Shown here piece by piece: positions 17,221 to 57,913 of a stretch of DNA of 64,000 bases (positions are counted from its first letter, which is position 1; each line of letters begins with the position of its first letter). Position numbers and translations under genes: made by a program. The notes below the pieces were generated by a model. It did no database searches and was not told the origin of the DNA. It saw only the letters and a program-made list of their open reading frames with translations. The DNA comes from an uncultured Acidobacteriota bacterium (GTDB lineage: Bacteria > Acidobacteriota > Terriglobia > Acidiferrales > UBA7541). The stretch spans positions 156,360 through 220,359 of the forward strand of contig CAWAVH010000018.1 in the NCBI GenBank assembly GCA_963785395.1, given 5' to 3'.

Positions 17221-17297
17221 GATGATTTCTCTCGCCCCCCACCCCCCCTCGAAAACACCTGTTTTTTGGCTAAGTGTTGAATCTACGGGAGTTGCGG
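17221..17297 (-). repeat. Degenerate half-copy of the G6-N-G6 promoter-linked element
   Basis: The minus strand reads ...AACTCCCGTAGATTC...GAGGGGGGGTGGGGGGCGAGAGAAATCATCC, matching the 3' part of the 56118..56198 copy (AACTCCTGTAGAATC...GAGGGGGGTGGGGGGCTTGCTGATGATCGC) with an internal insertion. Confidence 0.6.
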
Positions 17298-17396
17298 TAA
17301 TTTCGCGACAGCAAAAAGGCCCTTTGCCTTCAGCCTTCGCCGGGTGTGCAGCTGCGGCCAAGGAATCCTATTCGTTCTAGTCTGAGATTCGGGATA

Positions 17397-17479
17397 CCCC
17401 CCTCCCCCCTGTTTTTGCGTAACTGCAGATTCTAAAGGAGTTAGCTAGTACTACTCCCGTATCTACAGATATAGTTAGA
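17397..17479 (-). repeat. Conserved ~83-nt non-coding module (copy 1): DR-hairpin-DR-G6AG6
   Basis: The reverse complement aligns with 56118..56198 with 7 mismatches over about 83 nt. It contains ATCTGTAGATACG / ATCTGCAGTTACG repeats flanking GGAGT-N11-ACTCC and ends in GGGGGGAGGGGGG. Confidence 0.85.
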
Positions 17480-17525
17480 GTTAAGGCCGAATTAGGGGGC
17501 CGAGTACTATCGAAAGAGGTGCGCC

Positions 17526-17559
17526 CCAAAAGCAAAACCCGCGCTGGTGGGCGCGGGTT
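17526..17559 (-). terminator. Rho-independent terminator-like hairpin about 15-45 nt downstream of the predicted promoter
   Basis: 9-bp stem AACCCGCGC/GCGCGGGTT with loop CCACCA (minus-strand sense), followed by TTGCTTTTGGGG on the minus strand. Confidence 0.6.
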
Positions 17560-17578
17560 GGTATAACTCTCCACCAAC

Positions 17579-17607
17579 ATTATCTCATGTCAAGCAAATC
17601 ATGTCAA
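17579..17607 (-). promoter_or_regulatory. Consensus-like sigma70 promoter TTGACA-N17-GATAAT (minus strand)
   Basis: The minus strand reads CTCATTATTTCTCTTGACAtgatttgcttgacatgaGATAATgttggtggag. It has the same hexamers, spacing and similar flanks as the promoter at 55969..55997. No CDS lies downstream on this strand. Confidence 0.6.
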
Positions 17608-33540: not shown

Positions 33541-33574
33541 ACAACCCCTCCCTCCCCCGGAGGGGTTGTTTTTG
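33541..33574 (+). terminator. Rho-independent terminator of the pirin gene
   Basis: 11-bp perfect stem ACAACCCCTCC/GGAGGGGTTGT with a 7-nt C-rich loop, followed by TTTT. Confidence 0.8.
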
Positions 33575-33668
33575 TATAGTGATGATTCTAATAGAGTTAC
33601 CTAGTACTATTACTAAAAACTTATTCATTCTAAAGGAGTTAGGTCTGTTTTTGAGGTGTTTTTTGGCG
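33575..33668 (-). repeat. Degenerate copy of the promoter-linked element (no promoter recognisable)
   Basis: GATTCTAATAGAGTTACCTAGTACTATTAC and ATTCTAAAGGAGTTAGG resemble ATTCTAAAGGAGTTAGCTAGTACTACTCC of 17430-17458. GAGGTGTTTTTTGGCG resembles ACACCTGTTTTTTGGC at 17265-17280. The C-rich tract is recruited into the adjacent terminator. Confidence 0.5.
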
Positions 33669-33782
33669 ATTTTGCGCCTGAATCCTATCACGCGCCTGCT
33701 TTCTGGCCTGGACTTGTTTCACACGTTTTGACCTCTACATTTACCTCCCAACTGAGTCCCAAGCATGGCCGGGGCGGAACCT

Positions 33783-33820
33783 GGGCGAGGCCTGCCTGCT
33801 TCGCAGTCGAGCCTAGCCCC
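33783..33820. repeat. 38-bp REP-like palindromic repeat, copy 1
   Basis: GGGCGAGGCCTGCCTGCTTCGCAGTCGAGCCTAGCCCC has 34 of 38 identities with 37519..37556. The arms GGGCGAGGC/GCCT(A)GCCC are inverted repeats. Confidence 0.7.
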
Positions 33821-33921
33821 TACGGCGGATGGCGACTGACGGCCCCTCCTCGGAGACAAGTCGTCGAAATTTATCAGCACCGATTTGGAGATCTGTCGAG
33901 GGGGTTGAACGGAACTCGCCG

Positions 33922-33956
33922 GAAAAGAAAAAGCCCGAACCTTTTGGGGTTCGGGC
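33922..33956 (-). terminator. Rho-independent terminator downstream of tRNA-Phe
   Basis: 9-bp stem GCCCGAACC/GGTTCGGGC, followed on the minus strand by TTTTTCTTTTC. Confidence 0.7.
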
Positions 33957-34041
33957 GCGGAGATGCTCCGTTTATTAGTATGCCATGAGGTATAACGGGA
34001 GTCAAGGGCAACGCTGGAGAAGCATGGTCCGCGATTTGGAA

Positions 34042-37514: not shown

Positions 37515-37518
37515 TGGT

Positions 37519-37556
37519 GGGCGAGGCCTGTCCGCTTCGCGGTCGAGCCTCGCCCC
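37519..37556. repeat. 38-bp REP-like palindromic repeat, copy 2
   Basis: GGGCGAGGCCTGTCCGCTTCGCGGTCGAGCCTCGCCCC has a perfect 9-bp inverted-repeat stem. It sits between convergent genes (ADOP permease / ftsK) and may act as a bidirectional terminator. Confidence 0.7.
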
Positions 37557-55813: not shown

Positions 55814-55968
55814 CCTCTCCTCCTGGACTGGCTACCTCGACGCCTGCCCACTGCGATGCCCCCTCCGTTACCGGTGTTGCACCGTAAAGACATCCTAACC
55901 CACGTCCGAAATTCCCATTTTGGAACTCCGTCCGGATGGGACTAGTACTCTCATTTTATATTTAGTTC

Positions 55969-55997
55969 TTGACAACTGTTTCGGTTTTTGAGATAAT
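55969..55997 (+). promoter_or_regulatory. Consensus-like sigma70 promoter TTGACA-N17-GATAAT (plus strand)
   Basis: CTCATTTTATATTTAGTTCTTGACAactgtttcggtttttgaGATAATgcacatggag. It has an AT-rich upstream flank and is homologous to the promoter at 17579..17607. It lies 370 nt upstream of the dipeptidase ATG. Confidence 0.6.
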
Positions 55998-56117
55998 GCA
56001 CATGGAGAATTTCCTTCAAAATTCACGGTCGCAGGGCTTGTTGTCGCGCAGAACTGCGCTCGAATAGTTCCAAAACGGAAAAAGAGGCTATCAGGGGGCT
56101 CCGATGCCACGTAAGTC

Positions 56118-56198
56118 TAGCTATATCTGCAGTTACGGGAGTAGTACTAGCTAACTCCTGTAGAATCTGCAGTTACGCGAAAAGAGGGGGGTGGGGGG
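56118..56198 (+). repeat. Conserved ~83-nt non-coding module (copy 2): DR-hairpin-DR-G6TG6
   Basis: CTAGCTATATCTGCAGTTACGGGAGTAGTACTAGCTAACTCCTGTAGAATCTGCAGTTACGCGAAAAGAGGGGGGTGGGGGG. It contains two exact ATCTGCAGTTACG repeats and has 7 mismatches to the reverse complement of 17397..17479. Confidence 0.85.
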
Positions 56199-56366
56199 CT
56201 TGCTGATGATCGCTTCAGAATCCGAACGGCAACTTTTGAGCACGACGTTGGCTGGGCCGTCCAGCTCAAAACCGGCAGGCCGGCCCAATTGCGCCGCAAC
56301 ACTTGAGGCAACACCCATTTCTTTCGTCCTTAACTCTCGGAAAGGCTTTAAGGTATTCTCACTCGC

Positions 56367-57913
56367 ATGAAAATTGTGACCGCGGTTGCTGCCGGCCTGC
56401 TCCTCGCCGCCATGCTTCCGGGACCTGCTATGACTGACGACATCGCCGACCGCGCGCACAAAATTCATTTCAGCTCGATCGTGGTGGATACCCACGACGA
56501 TACGCCGCAGCGATTTTTCTTCGAGAATTTCGATCTCGGTCATCACGACCCGCATGGGCAGCATCGATATTCCGCGAATGCGCGAAGGCGGCCTCGGCGC
56601 GATATTTTTCTCGATCTGGTGTCCTGCAACTTTGACGGGCCCACCCGCCGTCCAGCGCGCTCTCGATTTGATCGATGGAGTTCGCGAGCAGGTGAACAAG
56701 CATTCGCAAGATTTAGTTCTCGCCACAACCGCGGACGAAATTCGCCGCGCGCACGAGCAGGGAAAGATCGCCATCCTCATCGGAGTTGAGGGCGGCTACA
56801 TGATCAACAACGATCTCGGCGTGCTCCGGCGAATTCGCCGCGCTCGGCGTGCGATATATGACGCTCACACACACCCTCGATATCGATTGGGCTGATTCGA
56901 GTACAGACGTGCCGAAGCACGATGGCCTCACTCCATTTGGCAAAGATGTAATTCGCGAAATGAATCGCCTCGGAATGATGGTGGATATTTCGCACGTCTC
57001 CGACAAAACTTTTTACGACGCGCTCGAAGTGAGCAAAGCTCCGCTCATCGCATCGCACTCATCGTGCCGCGCGATCAGCGGCGCTCCGCGCAACATGACA
57101 GACGACATGATCAAAGCCCTAGCTGCAAAGGGCGGCGTGATTCAAATTAATTATCACGTGAGCTTTCTAAGCGATGCGTATCGCACCGCCGCCGCAAAAA
57201 GCGATGAACTGAAGCAGCGCACCGCGGCCGCCGAAAAAATCGCAGGCACAAACGAAGCAGCCAGTGTTCGCGCCGATGATTCCGTCGCCCACCAAATGAT
57301 GGACGAAGGAAAACTTCCCAAAGTAAATTGGGAAGAAATTATGGATCACATCGATCACGCCGTAAAATTAGTCGGCGCAGATCACGTCGGCCTCGGCTCC
57401 GATTTTGATGGCGCCACAATGCCCATCGGCATGGAAGATGTCTCCAAAATTCCGCAACTCACCGAAGCCATGCTTCGCCGCGGCTACACCGAACAAGACA
57501 TTCGCAAAATTCTCGGCGGCAACACGCTCCGAGTTATGGCCGAGAACGAGCATGTCAGCCATGAACTTCAATCGGCCGAGCAAGGCACACTCCTTTCTAA
57601 AGAAGTTCCGAAAACCTCGCCCACGAATCCAAAGCCACAACCCCCTACATGCGCCTATTGTCCGCGTCCGGACTATTCGGAAGAAGCTAAGCACGCCAAG
57701 CTCGAAGGCGATGTGCTTCTGAGCGTCCTGGTTGGAATCGATGGCAAGGCTTTCGACATTGATGTGATCAGGGGCATGGGAATGGGCCTCGATGAAAAGG
57801 CTGTAGAGATCGTCAAAAAGTGGAAATTCAACCCTGGATTGGATAGTGACGGCAAGCCAATCAAGGCGCGAGTGCAGATAATTGTTTCGTTCCGACTTCT
57901 GGGACACGGTTGA
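56367..57913 (+). CDS. Membrane (M19, renal-type) dipeptidase fused to a C-terminal TonB_C-like domain; apparent frameshifts ~56550 and ~56835
   Basis: The signal peptide and IVVDTHDDTP are in ORF 56367..56789. IDIPRMREGGLGAIFFSIW...ILIGVEGG is in 56554..56895. MTLTH, MMVDISHVSD, LIASHSS, GLGSDFDG and the tail CPRPDYSEEAKHAKLEGDVLLSVLVGIDGKAFDIDVIRGMGMGLDEKAVEIVKKWKFNPG...VSFRL are in 56849..57913. Confidence 0.85.

What the first reader, a model, noticed from the sequence alone, without database searches (positions are those of the whole stretch)
55969..56366. Copy 2 of the promoter + module forms a ~365-nt leader upstream of the dipeptidase-TonB_C gene
The TTGACA-N17-GATAAT promoter at 55969-55997 predicts a start near 56004. 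The conserved module occupies 56118-56198, and the next CDS (dipeptidase, ATG 56367) is on the same strand with no obvious intrinsic terminator in between. In this context the module could be a cis-regulatory leader (riboswitch-like or protein-binding), or an sRNA processed from a 5' UTR. This contrasts with the gene-less copy 1. A partial echo of the hairpin (GGGACTAGTACTCTC, 55939-55953) lies just upstream of the promoter.
Basis: seen in the sequence. Interest (0 to 1): 0.65.

Follow-up and report, generated by a model that had tools for sequence, protein, structure and literature searches.

The report
Self-promoted repeat cassette, not a riboswitch
The promoter and module upstream of the dipeptidase gene are one slightly decayed copy of a previously undescribed repeat family in soil Acidobacteria, made of many self-promoted mini transcription units that end in the same sequence cassette, and it is not a regulator dedicated to this gene.

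Summary
A near-consensus promoter (55969-55997), the 87-nt module (56112-56198) and a same-strand dipeptidase gene with no terminator in between are all present. The module is not a folded leader RNA specific to this gene.

Of these, 102 are in Acidobacteriota MAGs (Ca. Acidoferrum/Acidiferrales, subdivision 2), with up to 10 per MAG.

Family layout:
- A strong sigma-70 promoter, often with an upstream ATTCGAAT or TAGTACT palindrome.
- A GTG or ATG start about 5 nt after the -10 box (leaderless type).
- A unique, C-rich stretch that is kept free of stop codons.
- One to four conserved "units" (CCTTTAGAATCnnCACTTAC).
- An A-run followed by GGGGGGNGGGGGG.

The start-codon frame stays open, but pN/pS is about 1, and the same unit is read in different frames. 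There is no consensus RNA structure and no Rfam or Pfam match. The gene downstream is co-directional in half of cases and convergent in the other half.

Copy 2 has a truncated ORF of 21 codons. The dipeptidase gene has its own conserved proximal block that looks like a leaderless promoter. Function is unproven. My best guess is a translation-coupled RNA cassette.

The parts
55938..55952 (+). It is a palindromic TAGTACT-type element about 22 nt upstream of the -35 box, and a probable promoter-upstream protein-binding site.
   Evidence: Conserved in L002 and L063. TAGTACT occurs 8 times against 0.42 expected. Related GTACTAGTAC or AGTACT motifs, or ATTCGAAT, sit at the same place in other family promoters; TTCGAA is present in 25 of 63.
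55969..55997 (+). Distal sigma-70-type promoter: TTGACA, 17-nt spacer, TG-extended GATAAT.
   Evidence: A twin lies at copy 1. Conserved in L002 and L063. Across the family, 54 of 108 elements carry such a promoter upstream on the same strand, against 0, 1 and 3 in controls.
56002..56067 (+). Leaderless-type ATG, 4 nt after the -10 box, opening a 21-codon ORF (MENFLQNSRSQGLLSRRTALE, stop TAG). This is the truncated counterpart of the long family ORF. The +1 frame stays open through the G-run.
   Evidence: RTG offsets after the -10 box in the family: 5 nt in 31 of 64 promoters, 3-4 nt in 11.
56112..56198 (+). Module, copy 2. Degenerate unit 56115-56136; lineage-specific hairpin GGGAGT/ACTCC with a TAGTACTA loop 56137-56158; terminal unit CTAACTCCTGTAGAATCTGCAGTTAC 56151-56176; GCGAAAAGA 56177-56185; G-run GGGGGGTGGGGGG 56186-56198.
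56206..56370 (+). 54-codon ORF starting 7 nt after the G-run. Its stop codon overlaps the dipeptidase start as ATGA. Probably fortuitous.
   Evidence: In L002 this frame is open for only 20 codons and has no start codon.
56290..56366 (+). Conserved proximal block containing TTAACT (56330-35), an 18-nt spacer, TATTCT (56354-59), 7 nt, then ATG, with no Shine-Dalgarno sequence. Candidate own (leaderless-type) promoter of the dipeptidase gene.
   Evidence: Sequence. Near-identity to L002 while 56199-56289 does not align. TANNNT about 12 nt before a start codon is the known signature of leaderless genes (PMC3160421). Below the threshold of the promoter scan, so this is inference.
56367..57913 (+). 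Secreted M19 dipeptidase fused to a TonB_C domain. In the window it is broken by two 1-nt insertions, near 56554 and 56831.
17579..17607 (-). Copy-1 promoter: TTGACA, 17-nt spacer, TG-extended GATAAT.
17377..17574 (-). Copy-1 leaderless-type ORF. GTG lies 4 nt after the -10 box. The 65 codons run through the terminator-like hairpin and module A in the family's usual frame (..NSFRICSYAKTGGRGVSRISD*).
   Evidence: family rule.
17536..17559 (-). Terminator-like hairpin followed by TTTTGCTTTT, between the copy-1 promoter and its module.
   Evidence: The same layout appears in L057, L019, L043, L088 and L108.
17397..17483 (-). Module, copy 1 (A-type).
   Evidence: Absent from the orthologous locus L066 in the GTDB representative of the same species.
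17235..17309 (-). Second cassette, B-type: GTCGCGAAATT..CCCGTAGATTCAACACTTAGCC..GGGGGGGTGGGGGG.
   Evidence: Counterparts in L066, L057 and L002.
33543..34005 (-). Further, divergent family locus. Promoter TTGACT-17-CATACT (34005-33977); intrinsic terminator (33956-33923); two units with TAGTACTA between them (33643-33575); A-run; and a GC hairpin in place of the G-run.

Best explanation
**What it is (shown).** The region 55938-56198 is one member of a family of autonomous, self-promoted mini transcription units specific to Acidobacteria subdivision 2 (Ca. Acidoferrales). A canonical member has these parts, in order:
1. A palindromic upstream element, ATTCGAAT or TAGTACT-type.
2. A near-consensus sigma-70 promoter.
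3. A GTG or ATG at the transcription start (leaderless start).
4. A locus-specific, C-rich, G-poor stretch of 50-300 nt in which stop codons are avoided in that frame.
5. One to four nucleotide-conserved units, CCTTTAGAATCnnCACTTAC, in direct or inverted orientation.
6. An A-run.
7. GGGGGGNGGGGGG, an extended Shine-Dalgarno-like tail.

**How it likely works (inferred).** The cassette acts as a linear RNA sequence, not as a folded aptamer and not as a protein domain. Ribosomes that start at the 5' end must read through it. This translation would keep the C-rich RNA clear of Rho and of secondary structure, and would deliver or pause ribosomes on the SD-like tail. The output would be read-through transcription or ribosome loading into whatever lies downstream. 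That is sense for the dipeptidase gene at copy 2, and antisense for the convergent gene at copy 1.

**Copy 2 specifically.** The long ORF is cut to 21 codons, so this copy looks decayed. Its strong promoter probably adds a long transcript on top of the gene's own proximal promoter. It is not a dedicated switch for the gene.
For: **Family and taxon.** The pattern scan found at least 114 loci, 102 of them with Acidobacteriota titles and up to 10 per MAG. It found none in viral contigs. Depth spikes over the module in soil metagenomes, with different flanking sequences.

**Promoter link.** 54 of 108 elements carry a promoter upstream on the same strand, against 0, 1 and 3 in controls. TTCGAA lies upstream of the -35 box in 25 of 63 promoters, where about 1 is expected.

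**Leaderless start.** RTG sits exactly 5 nt after the -10 box in 31 of 64 promoters. This is the leaderless-gene signature described in PMC3160421.

**ORF kept open.**
- The RTG frame is open up to the G-run in 28 of 41 units, against 3 and 5 for the other two frames.
- In the unique variable region alone there are 18 stops in the RTG frame against 47 and 38, and 31 of 40 units have no stop against 7 and 18.
- Frame preference holds at cluster level: 19 of 32, p = 0.002.

**The peptide is not what is selected.**
- pN/pS is 0.5-1.4 in paralogue pairs, with no third-position bias.
- The same unit is read as PLESALT or as FRIRTY.
- Variation within the unit falls on codon positions 1 and 2.
- No Pfam match.

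**Not a folded RNA.** RNAalifold gives 0 consensus pairs on 62 members, and Rfam gives nothing.

**Not tied to the downstream gene.** 50 co-directional against 50 convergent.

**Locus conservation.** L002 keeps the echo, the promoter, the terminal unit, the G-run and the proximal block, but not the hairpin or the spacer.

**Composition.** The variable region is 34% C and 21% G.

**Transcription.** Cassettes occur in metatranscriptome contigs.
Against: - No strand-resolved RNA data exist. No transcription start, 3' end or ribosome occupancy was observed. Metatranscriptome contigs can include DNA.
- The Rho and ribosome steps are pure inference.
- Copy 2, L002 and about a third of members lack the long ORF, so translation cannot be essential for every copy.
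- About 40% of elements showed no recognisable promoter within 400 nt.
- Units occurring in inverted orientation fit a DNA-level or recombination origin better than an RNA reading.
- The downstream-gene orientation count rests on a crude ORF heuristic.
- The pN/pS values come from only four paralogue pairs in two genomes.
- Presence/absence and module swapping between close strains (window versus L066 and L002) look like selfish or recombining DNA.
Confidence: 0.4

Rival explanations
1. One reading: the module is a cis-regulatory leader of the dipeptidase-TonB_C mRNA. It would act as a riboswitch-like or protein-binding element in a roughly 365-nt 5' UTR.
For: Same strand, strong promoter, and no terminator-like site between 55997 and 56367. 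The G-run is SD-like and is followed by an ORF whose stop overlaps the dipeptidase ATG. The promoter, terminal unit and G-run are kept at the orthologous locus in L002.
Against: - The element is multi-copy, with downstream genes that are unrelated or convergent.
- No consensus structure and no Rfam match.
- The hairpin and the spacer down to the gene are not conserved in L002, and the coupling ORF is absent there.
- No element is present upstream of the 69%-identical orthologue in L003.
- The gene has a conserved proximal block that looks like a leaderless promoter.
Confidence: 0.1
2. Selfish mosaic intergenic repeat, similar to BOX, BIME or MITE elements. The cassette would spread by recombination, gene conversion or an unknown transposase and have no function of its own. 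Promoters and open frames would be by-products.
For: - Dispersed and multi-copy, with sub-units in variable number and in both orientations.
- Sub-families share the variable dinucleotide within an element, which suggests concerted evolution.
- Presence/absence and module swapping between close strains.
- Sharp element boundaries in metagenome contigs.
- No conserved RNA fold.
Against: - By eye, no terminal inverted repeats or target-site duplications at the boundaries of three paralogues.
- No transposase context was seen.
- The strong, oriented link to a promoter 130-400 nt upstream, across unique DNA, is not expected for junk repeats.
- The same applies to the precisely placed RTG, frame-specific stop avoidance in the unique region and the shared upstream palindrome.
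- The terminal unit is conserved across many species.
Confidence: 0.25
3. A family of trans-acting small RNAs. The repeated units and their A-rich spacers (CAAAAACAAAG, ACAAAAAA) would titrate an RNA-binding protein such as Hfq, as the CrcZ and RsmZ sponge RNAs do. Alternatively, the variable region would act as a seed.
For: - Own strong promoters, a shared upstream palindrome suggesting a regulon, and many paralogues per genome.
- A repeated motif followed by an A-rich tract, one to four times per RNA.
- A variable 5' part with a constant 3' part.
- Independence from the downstream gene.
- Presence in metatranscriptome contigs.
Against: - No conserved terminator or hairpins presenting the motif.
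- It does not explain the RTG at the transcription start or the frame-specific avoidance of stops.
- No binding protein has been identified.
Confidence: 0.15
4. A family of small leaderless protein genes whose product carries a conserved C-terminal tag (..DLKSFRIRTYKKGGGRG).
For: The RTG lies at the start site. ORFs of 45-135 codons are kept open. The last unit is read in the same frame in 24 of the 28 open ORFs.
Against: - pN/pS is about 1, with no third-position bias.
- Upstream units are read in another frame within the same ORF.
- Variation within the unit hits codon positions 1 and 2.
- The stop position is not conserved, ranging from 3 nt to over 1 kb after the G-run.
- B-type cassettes carry a TAG in that frame.
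- No Pfam match.
- The sequences are low-complexity and rich in Pro, Ser and Arg.
Confidence: 0.1

Closest known systems
Mosaic intergenic repeats: pneumococcal BOX elements (boxA-boxB(n)-boxC) and E. coli BIMEs/REP
   Same: Short, dispersed and intergenic. Built from sub-modules whose number and orientation vary around a constant end module. Co-transcribed with neighbouring genes. Lineage-restricted, with many copies per genome.
   Different: This family is tied to its own consensus promoter, to a start codon at the transcription start, and to a stop-free unique stretch. It ends in A6 followed by G6NG6. No conserved palindrome or stem-loop was found. The comparison with BOX and BIME rests on my own knowledge, not on a test run here.
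Neisseria Correia elements and other promoter-bearing MITEs
   Same: Small multi-copy elements that carry or create promoters and alter expression of adjacent genes. They show presence/absence polymorphism between strains.
   Different: No terminal inverted repeats or target-site duplications were seen. The promoter is separated from the repeat by 50-300 nt of locus-specific DNA, so promoter and cassette are not one compact mobile unit.
Mycobacterial MIRUs and leaderless small ORFs/uORFs of Actinobacteria
   Same: A TANNNT -10 box a few nt before an RTG, which is the leaderless layout (PMC3160421). Short ORFs in intergenic repeats whose translation matters more than the peptide they encode.
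   Different: Different phylum. The repeat cassette and G-tail have no counterpart. Leaderless genes look rare in this lineage otherwise; there is only a weak peak at 5-8 nt.
Protein-sponge sRNAs with reiterated motifs (CsrB/RsmZ, CrcZ)
   Same: Several paralogous genes per genome. A reiterated short motif with A-rich tracts. Own regulated promoter.
   Different: No GGA or CA-motif hairpins. No terminator. A translated frame runs through the repeats. No partner protein is known.
Riboswitches and structured 5' leaders (Rfam families, including Acido-1 and Acido-Lenti-1)
   Same: Position of copy 2 between a promoter and a same-strand gene.
   Different: No Rfam hit at gathering or permissive thresholds. 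No consensus structure. No consistent downstream gene.

Membership tests
Riboswitch / structured cis-regulatory leader | Conserved secondary structure (aptamer) supported by covariation | tested here: not met
   RNAalifold on 62 members gave 0 consensus pairs. Single-sequence folds have z-scores of -1.2 to -1.3. The two window copies differ by changes that break pairs.
Riboswitch / structured cis-regulatory leader | Lies in the 5' UTR of a functionally coherent set of genes | tested here: not met
   50 co-directional against 50 convergent downstream ORFs. Downstream genes include icd, ctaD, leuC-like and xseA-like genes and TPR proteins.
Riboswitch / structured cis-regulatory leader | Match to a curated RNA family | tested here: not met
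MITE (non-autonomous transposon) | Terminal inverted repeats and target-site duplication | tested here: not met
   The boundaries of three paralogues in one MAG (L040, L059, L070) were inspected by eye. No TIR or TSD was seen.
MITE (non-autonomous transposon) | Multi-copy, with presence/absence polymorphism between close strains | tested here: met
   Module A is absent at L066, and the module is swapped in L002.
REP/BIME-type extragenic palindromes | Conserved imperfect palindrome of 20-40 nt | tested here: not met
   Conservation is in the linear sequence. Hairpins are specific to sub-families.
BOX-type mosaic repeat | Constant end module plus a variable number of internal sub-units | tested here: met
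   One to four units upstream of an invariant terminal unit, A-run and G-run.
Leaderless gene | TANNNT -10 box 5-8 nt upstream of RTG, without a Shine-Dalgarno sequence | tested here: met
   RTG lies 5 nt after the -10 box in 31 of 64 promoters. In copy 2, ATG lies 4 nt after GATAAT. The signature is described in PMC3160421.
Leaderless gene | ORF maintained by selection | tested here: met
   for the family. Not met for copy 2 itself, where the ORF stops after 21 codons.
Protein-coding gene family | Purifying selection on the amino-acid sequence, or a recognisable domain | tested here: not met
   pN/pS is 0.5-1.4. Units are read in two frames. No Pfam match.
Independent sRNA gene | Own promoter, defined 3' end, and detectable transcript | tested here: inconclusive
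   The promoter criterion is met. No conserved terminator was found. Cassettes occur in metatranscriptome contigs, but strand and ends are unknown.
Rho-dependent, translation-coupled attenuator | C-rich, G-poor untranslated or weakly translated RNA whose read-through depends on ribosome occupancy and on Rho | not testable with these tools
   Only the composition could be checked: 34% C and 21% G.

The most novel reading that the evidence does not exclude
Acidobacteria subdivision 2 carries a co-regulated set of dozens of leaderless mini-genes per genome. Under this reading their translation is selected but their peptide is not. They exist to run ribosomes through a nucleotide-conserved cassette ending in an extended anti-Shine-Dalgarno-complementary A6-G6NG6 tail. 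This would be a translation-sensing device acting on ribosomes or Rho, controlling read-through into neighbouring genes in sense or antisense, and driven by a dedicated regulator that binds ATTCGAAT or TAGTACTA palindromes.
Probability: 0.2. Interest if true: 0.8.

Novelty: new variant of a known kind. Interest (0 to 1): 0.6.

Why it matters
Acidobacteria subdivision 2 is abundant in soils and peat but uncultured, and almost nothing is known about how it regulates its genes. A promoter-linked repeat family with a shared upstream palindrome would define a large, previously unseen regulon.

The family also gives ready-made strong promoters and leaderless starts for this phylum. Its ORFs are kept open while their peptide sequence drifts neutrally, which makes them a clean natural test case for translation that matters only as an act.

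For annotation, there is a practical point. These units will be mis-called as hypothetical small proteins, or as N-terminal extensions of real genes. In-frame run-ons into icd, ctaD and a TPR gene were seen.

Tried and rejected
- **Rfam.** Searched the whole window, both copies at E up to 10, and 18 family loci. Only tRNAs were found.
- **Exact 21-mer of the hairpin.** It found 0 genomes and 1 metagenome contig, L001, which has the hairpin alone. The GTDB representative differs by one base, so I redesigned the pattern around the 3' end.
- **Exact-protein look-up of the neighbouring SIMPL gene.** Not on record.
- **RNA structure.** Single folds were unremarkable and the consensus fold was empty. 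A long-range pairing between the G-tail and a C-rich 5' segment is only marginally better than with flanking DNA, -22.5 against -20.5 and -19.6 kcal/mol. I dropped this as a main idea.
- **Protein family.** No Pfam match for six family peptides.
- **Translational coupling through the ORF 56206-56370.** Not conserved in L002.
- **Phage origin.** 0 hits in viral contigs.
- **Literature.** No paper contains the unit sequence or describes such a family.
- **RNA evidence.** Only two metatranscriptome runs hold related contigs, and they carry no strand information.
- **Rejected by inspection of the sequence:**
  - DGR template/variable repeats: the differences between copies are not adenine-specific.
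  - Retron: no reverse transcriptase nearby.
  - CRISPR array: spacers of about 12 nt and no cas genes.
  - tRNA-derived element: the similarity to a T-arm is superficial.
  - IS200/IS605 ends: no conserved hairpins.
Full report
**1. The observation**

- A TTGACA, 17-nt spacer, TG-extended GATAAT promoter lies at 55969-55997. A twin lies at 17607-17579 on the minus strand.
- The module is an 87-nt repeat, 56112-56198 = 17483-17397 inverted, 91% identical.
- No terminator-like site lies between the promoter and the ATG at 56367.

Two corrections are needed.
- The dipeptidase-TonB_C gene is split into three frames in the window. Soil-metagenome contigs of close relatives lack one base at 56554 and one at 56831. 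Removing these two bases gives a 514-aa protein that is 95% identical to an intact database protein.
- The predicted start at about 56004 coincides with an ATG at 56002.

**2. The organism**

Dipeptidase homologues and all related loci come from uncultured soil and peat Acidobacteriota. Their titles read Candidatus Acidoferrum, Acidiferrum, Acidiferrales or 'gp2'. The GTDB representative of the same species is MAG MFD05521.bin.2.149. Its locus L063 is the copy-2 locus with one base changed, which is why an exact 21-mer scan found nothing.

**3. The module is a dispersed repeat**

When metagenome contigs are laid on the window, depth jumps from about 5 to 26-47 exactly over the cassette. Contigs with unrelated flanks break off at 56112 and 56197/8, and at 17397/8.

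Comparing copy 1, copy 2, a second G-rich cassette at 17309-17235, and the orthologous locus L002 showed that the shared part is the 3' end: TAGAATCnnCAnTTA, then an A-rich stretch, then GGGGGGNGGGGGG.

Of these, 102 are in Acidobacteriota MAGs, with up to 10 per MAG. There were none in 2.9 million viral contigs.

The canonical element reads:

[..GTAACTCCTTTAGAATCCGCACTTCC]AAAAnCAnnG[GACTTAAAGTCCTTTAGAATCCGCACTTAC]AAAAAAnn-GGGGGGAGGGGGG

It is often followed by TnTTATnGTTAACCAG and a variable hairpin. There are one to four units, and these are sometimes inverted.

The window holds a further, divergent member at 34005-33543 on the minus strand.

**4. The cassette belongs to a promoter-driven unit**

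- Of 108 acidobacterial elements, 54 have TTGACW-N16-18-TAnnnT within 400 nt upstream on the same strand. The three control placements gave 0, 1 and 3.
- The promoters are related to each other. 25 of 63 carry TTCGAA, usually as ATTCGAAT, 20-36 nt upstream of the -35 box, where about one is expected.
- A subset carries AGTACT or GTACTAGTAC at that position instead. The window's 'echo' belongs to this subset.
- TAGTACT occurs 8 times at 5 sites in the window against 0.42 expected. Four of those sites are in the two finding loci and the fifth is in the divergent family locus near 33.6 kb.

The echo is therefore most simply a palindromic promoter-upstream site, presumably for a dimeric DNA-binding protein. 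That last step is inference.

**5. A leaderless, open, but neutrally evolving reading frame**

Evidence that the frame is kept open:
- A GTG or ATG sits exactly 5 nt after the -10 box in 31 of 64 promoters, and 3-4 nt after it in 11 more. This is the known signature of leaderless genes (PMC3160421). Leaderless layouts look rare among ordinary genes of these loci.
- In 28 of 41 such units that frame is open all the way to the G-run. The other two frames are open in 3 and 5.
- Within the locus-specific region alone, before any repeat unit, there are 18 stops in the RTG frame against 47 and 38. Stop-free units number 31 of 40 against 7 and 18.
- The RTG is in phase with the only frame that passes the terminal unit in 19 of 32 independent sequence clusters, p = 0.002.

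Evidence that the peptide itself is not conserved:
- The same nucleotide unit is read as PLESALT or as FRIRTY, even within one ORF.
- Variation within the unit falls on codon positions 1 and 2.
- pN/pS is 0.5-1.4 in four paralogue pairs, with no third-position bias.
- The stop lies anywhere from 3 nt to more than 1 kb after the G-run.
- No Pfam domain matches.

Copy 1 in the window obeys the rule: GTG at 17574, then 65 codons through module A in the usual frame. Copy 2 does not. Its ATG at 56002 opens only 21 codons, while the +1 frame remains open to just past the G-run.

**6. Not a folded RNA, and not tied to the next gene**

- RNAalifold on 62 terminal cassettes returns no consensus pair.
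- Rfam gives nothing at any threshold.
- The GGGAGT/ACTCC hairpin of the window's module is specific to this lineage. It also occurs alone in L001.
- The nearest downstream long ORF is co-directional in 50 cases and convergent in 50 (a crude heuristic). In the window, two of the three loci face convergent genes.

**7. The copy-2 locus compared across relatives**

The relative carrying a 95%-identical dipeptidase (L002) keeps five features:
- the SIMPL gene end;
- the echo and the promoter;
- a short ATTTCCTCAAAAT stretch;
- the terminal unit and the G-run;
- the last 77 nt or so before the ATG, which are almost unchanged.

The degenerate first unit, the hairpin, and the 90 nt after the G-run do not align. 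L002 also has about 500 nt of extra DNA upstream.

The conserved proximal block contains TTAACT, an 18-nt spacer, TATTCT, 7 nt, then ATG, with no Shine-Dalgarno sequence. I read this as the gene's own leaderless-type promoter. It falls below the promoter scan's threshold, so this is inference.

The 69%-identical orthologue L003 has no family element upstream. At copy 1, the GTDB representative (L066) lacks module A altogether. So the cassettes come and go between close strains.

**8. Mechanism**

Shown:
- a large, lineage-specific family of oriented units made of promoter, start codon, open frame and cassette;
- conservation at the nucleotide level;
- no consensus fold;
- no dependence on the downstream gene.

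Inferred:
- The units are transcribed from the mapped promoters. Support is weak: cassette-bearing contigs occur in two metatranscriptomes.
- They are translated from the 5' end.
- Translation is needed as an act, for example to keep the C-rich, G-poor RNA (34% C, 21% G) free of Rho or of structure, and to bring ribosomes onto the tail.
- The A-run plus GGAGG-containing tail is complementary to the usual 16S 3' end (..CCUCCUUUCU, from my own knowledge).

At copy 2 the likely net effect is a second, long transcript into the dipeptidase gene from a strong, probably regulated promoter.

I give this composite model 0.4.

**9. Comparison with known systems**

The family resembles BOX and BIME mosaic repeats in its modular build, Correia-type elements in bringing promoters next to genes, and actinobacterial leaderless small ORFs in its start architecture. 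It fails the defining tests for riboswitches, MITEs, REP palindromes and protein families (see the membership table).

I found no description of it in Rfam, in Pfam or in the searchable literature.

I file it as a new variant of dispersed intergenic repeats and multi-copy small transcription units. Its unusual and testable feature is selection for translation without selection on the peptide.

Noticed in passing
window 56367-57913 (near 56554 and 56831): The M19 dipeptidase-TonB_C gene is broken by two single-base insertions relative to soil-metagenome contigs and to a 95%-identical intact 514-aa protein. This is either assembly error (the related MAGs appear to be long-read assemblies) or a very recent pseudogene.
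   Followed up: partly
window 34005-33543 (-): A further, divergent family locus lies just downstream of tRNA-Phe. It has a promoter, then an immediate intrinsic terminator, then about 280 nt, then two units with TAGTACTA between them. The G-run is replaced by a GC hairpin that also serves as the terminator of the convergent + strand gene.
   Followed up: partly
Family promoters, e.g. L079, L014, L035 and L099, 20-36 nt upstream of the -35 box: The palindrome ATTCGAAT (TTCGAA in 25 of 63 promoters, about 1 expected) marks the family's promoters and is sometimes duplicated. It is a candidate operator for a dedicated regulator.
   Followed up: partly
window 17446-53, 17503-09, 33602-09, 55943-49, 56142-49: TAGTACT(A) is about 20-fold over-represented, and every site lies in a family locus. 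It occurs both upstream of the promoter and inside the module. This suggests a DNA-level binding site present twice per locus.
   Followed up: partly
window 33782-33820 and 37518-37556: An unrelated 39-nt GC-rich repeat, TGGGCGAGGCCTGYCYGCTTCGCRGTCGAGCCTMGCCCC, 90% identical between the two sites. One copy sits inside the divergent family locus. It looks like another small dispersed element.
   Followed up: no
L040, L012 and L086 (all from MAG SPRUCE 639): Three paralogues in one genome share the promoter, a 5' GTGTTATC..ATTCGAACG handle and the units. The distance from GTG to the terminal unit is exactly 172 nt in all three. The roughly 50 nt in the middle are unrelated in sequence, so this is a fixed-length hypervariable segment.
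   Followed up: partly
L052, L073, L099: The family ORF runs on in frame, without a stop, into the next real gene (isocitrate dehydrogenase, a TPR protein, and cytochrome oxidase subunit I). Gene callers could report false N-terminal extensions.
   Followed up: no
L064 and L100 (DASPOJ01, labelled Candidatus Methylomirabilota): Two short contigs of a MAG labelled as another phylum carry canonical family elements. Mis-binned acidobacterial contigs are the likeliest explanation, with horizontal transfer as the alternative.
   Followed up: no
window 55874-56024: A 151-nt contig from a soil metatranscriptome run (X13) spans the distal promoter itself. If it is RNA and not contaminating DNA, some transcript crosses the promoter. 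One candidate is the 5' end of the divergent SIMPL gene's mRNA.
   Followed up: no
Unit core, all family members: The invariant core of every unit is GAATC or GATTC, i.e. GANTC, the recognition sequence of CcrM/HinfI-type adenine methyltransferases. Other 6-bp palindromes (CTGCAG, GTTAAC, TTCGAA, AGTACT) are also frequent in the elements.
   Followed up: no
L001 421-441: The lineage-specific hairpin GGGAGTAGTACTAGCTAACTCCC occurs alone, without units or G-run, about 50 nt upstream of an ORF on an unrelated metagenome contig. It is therefore a separable sub-module.
   Followed up: no
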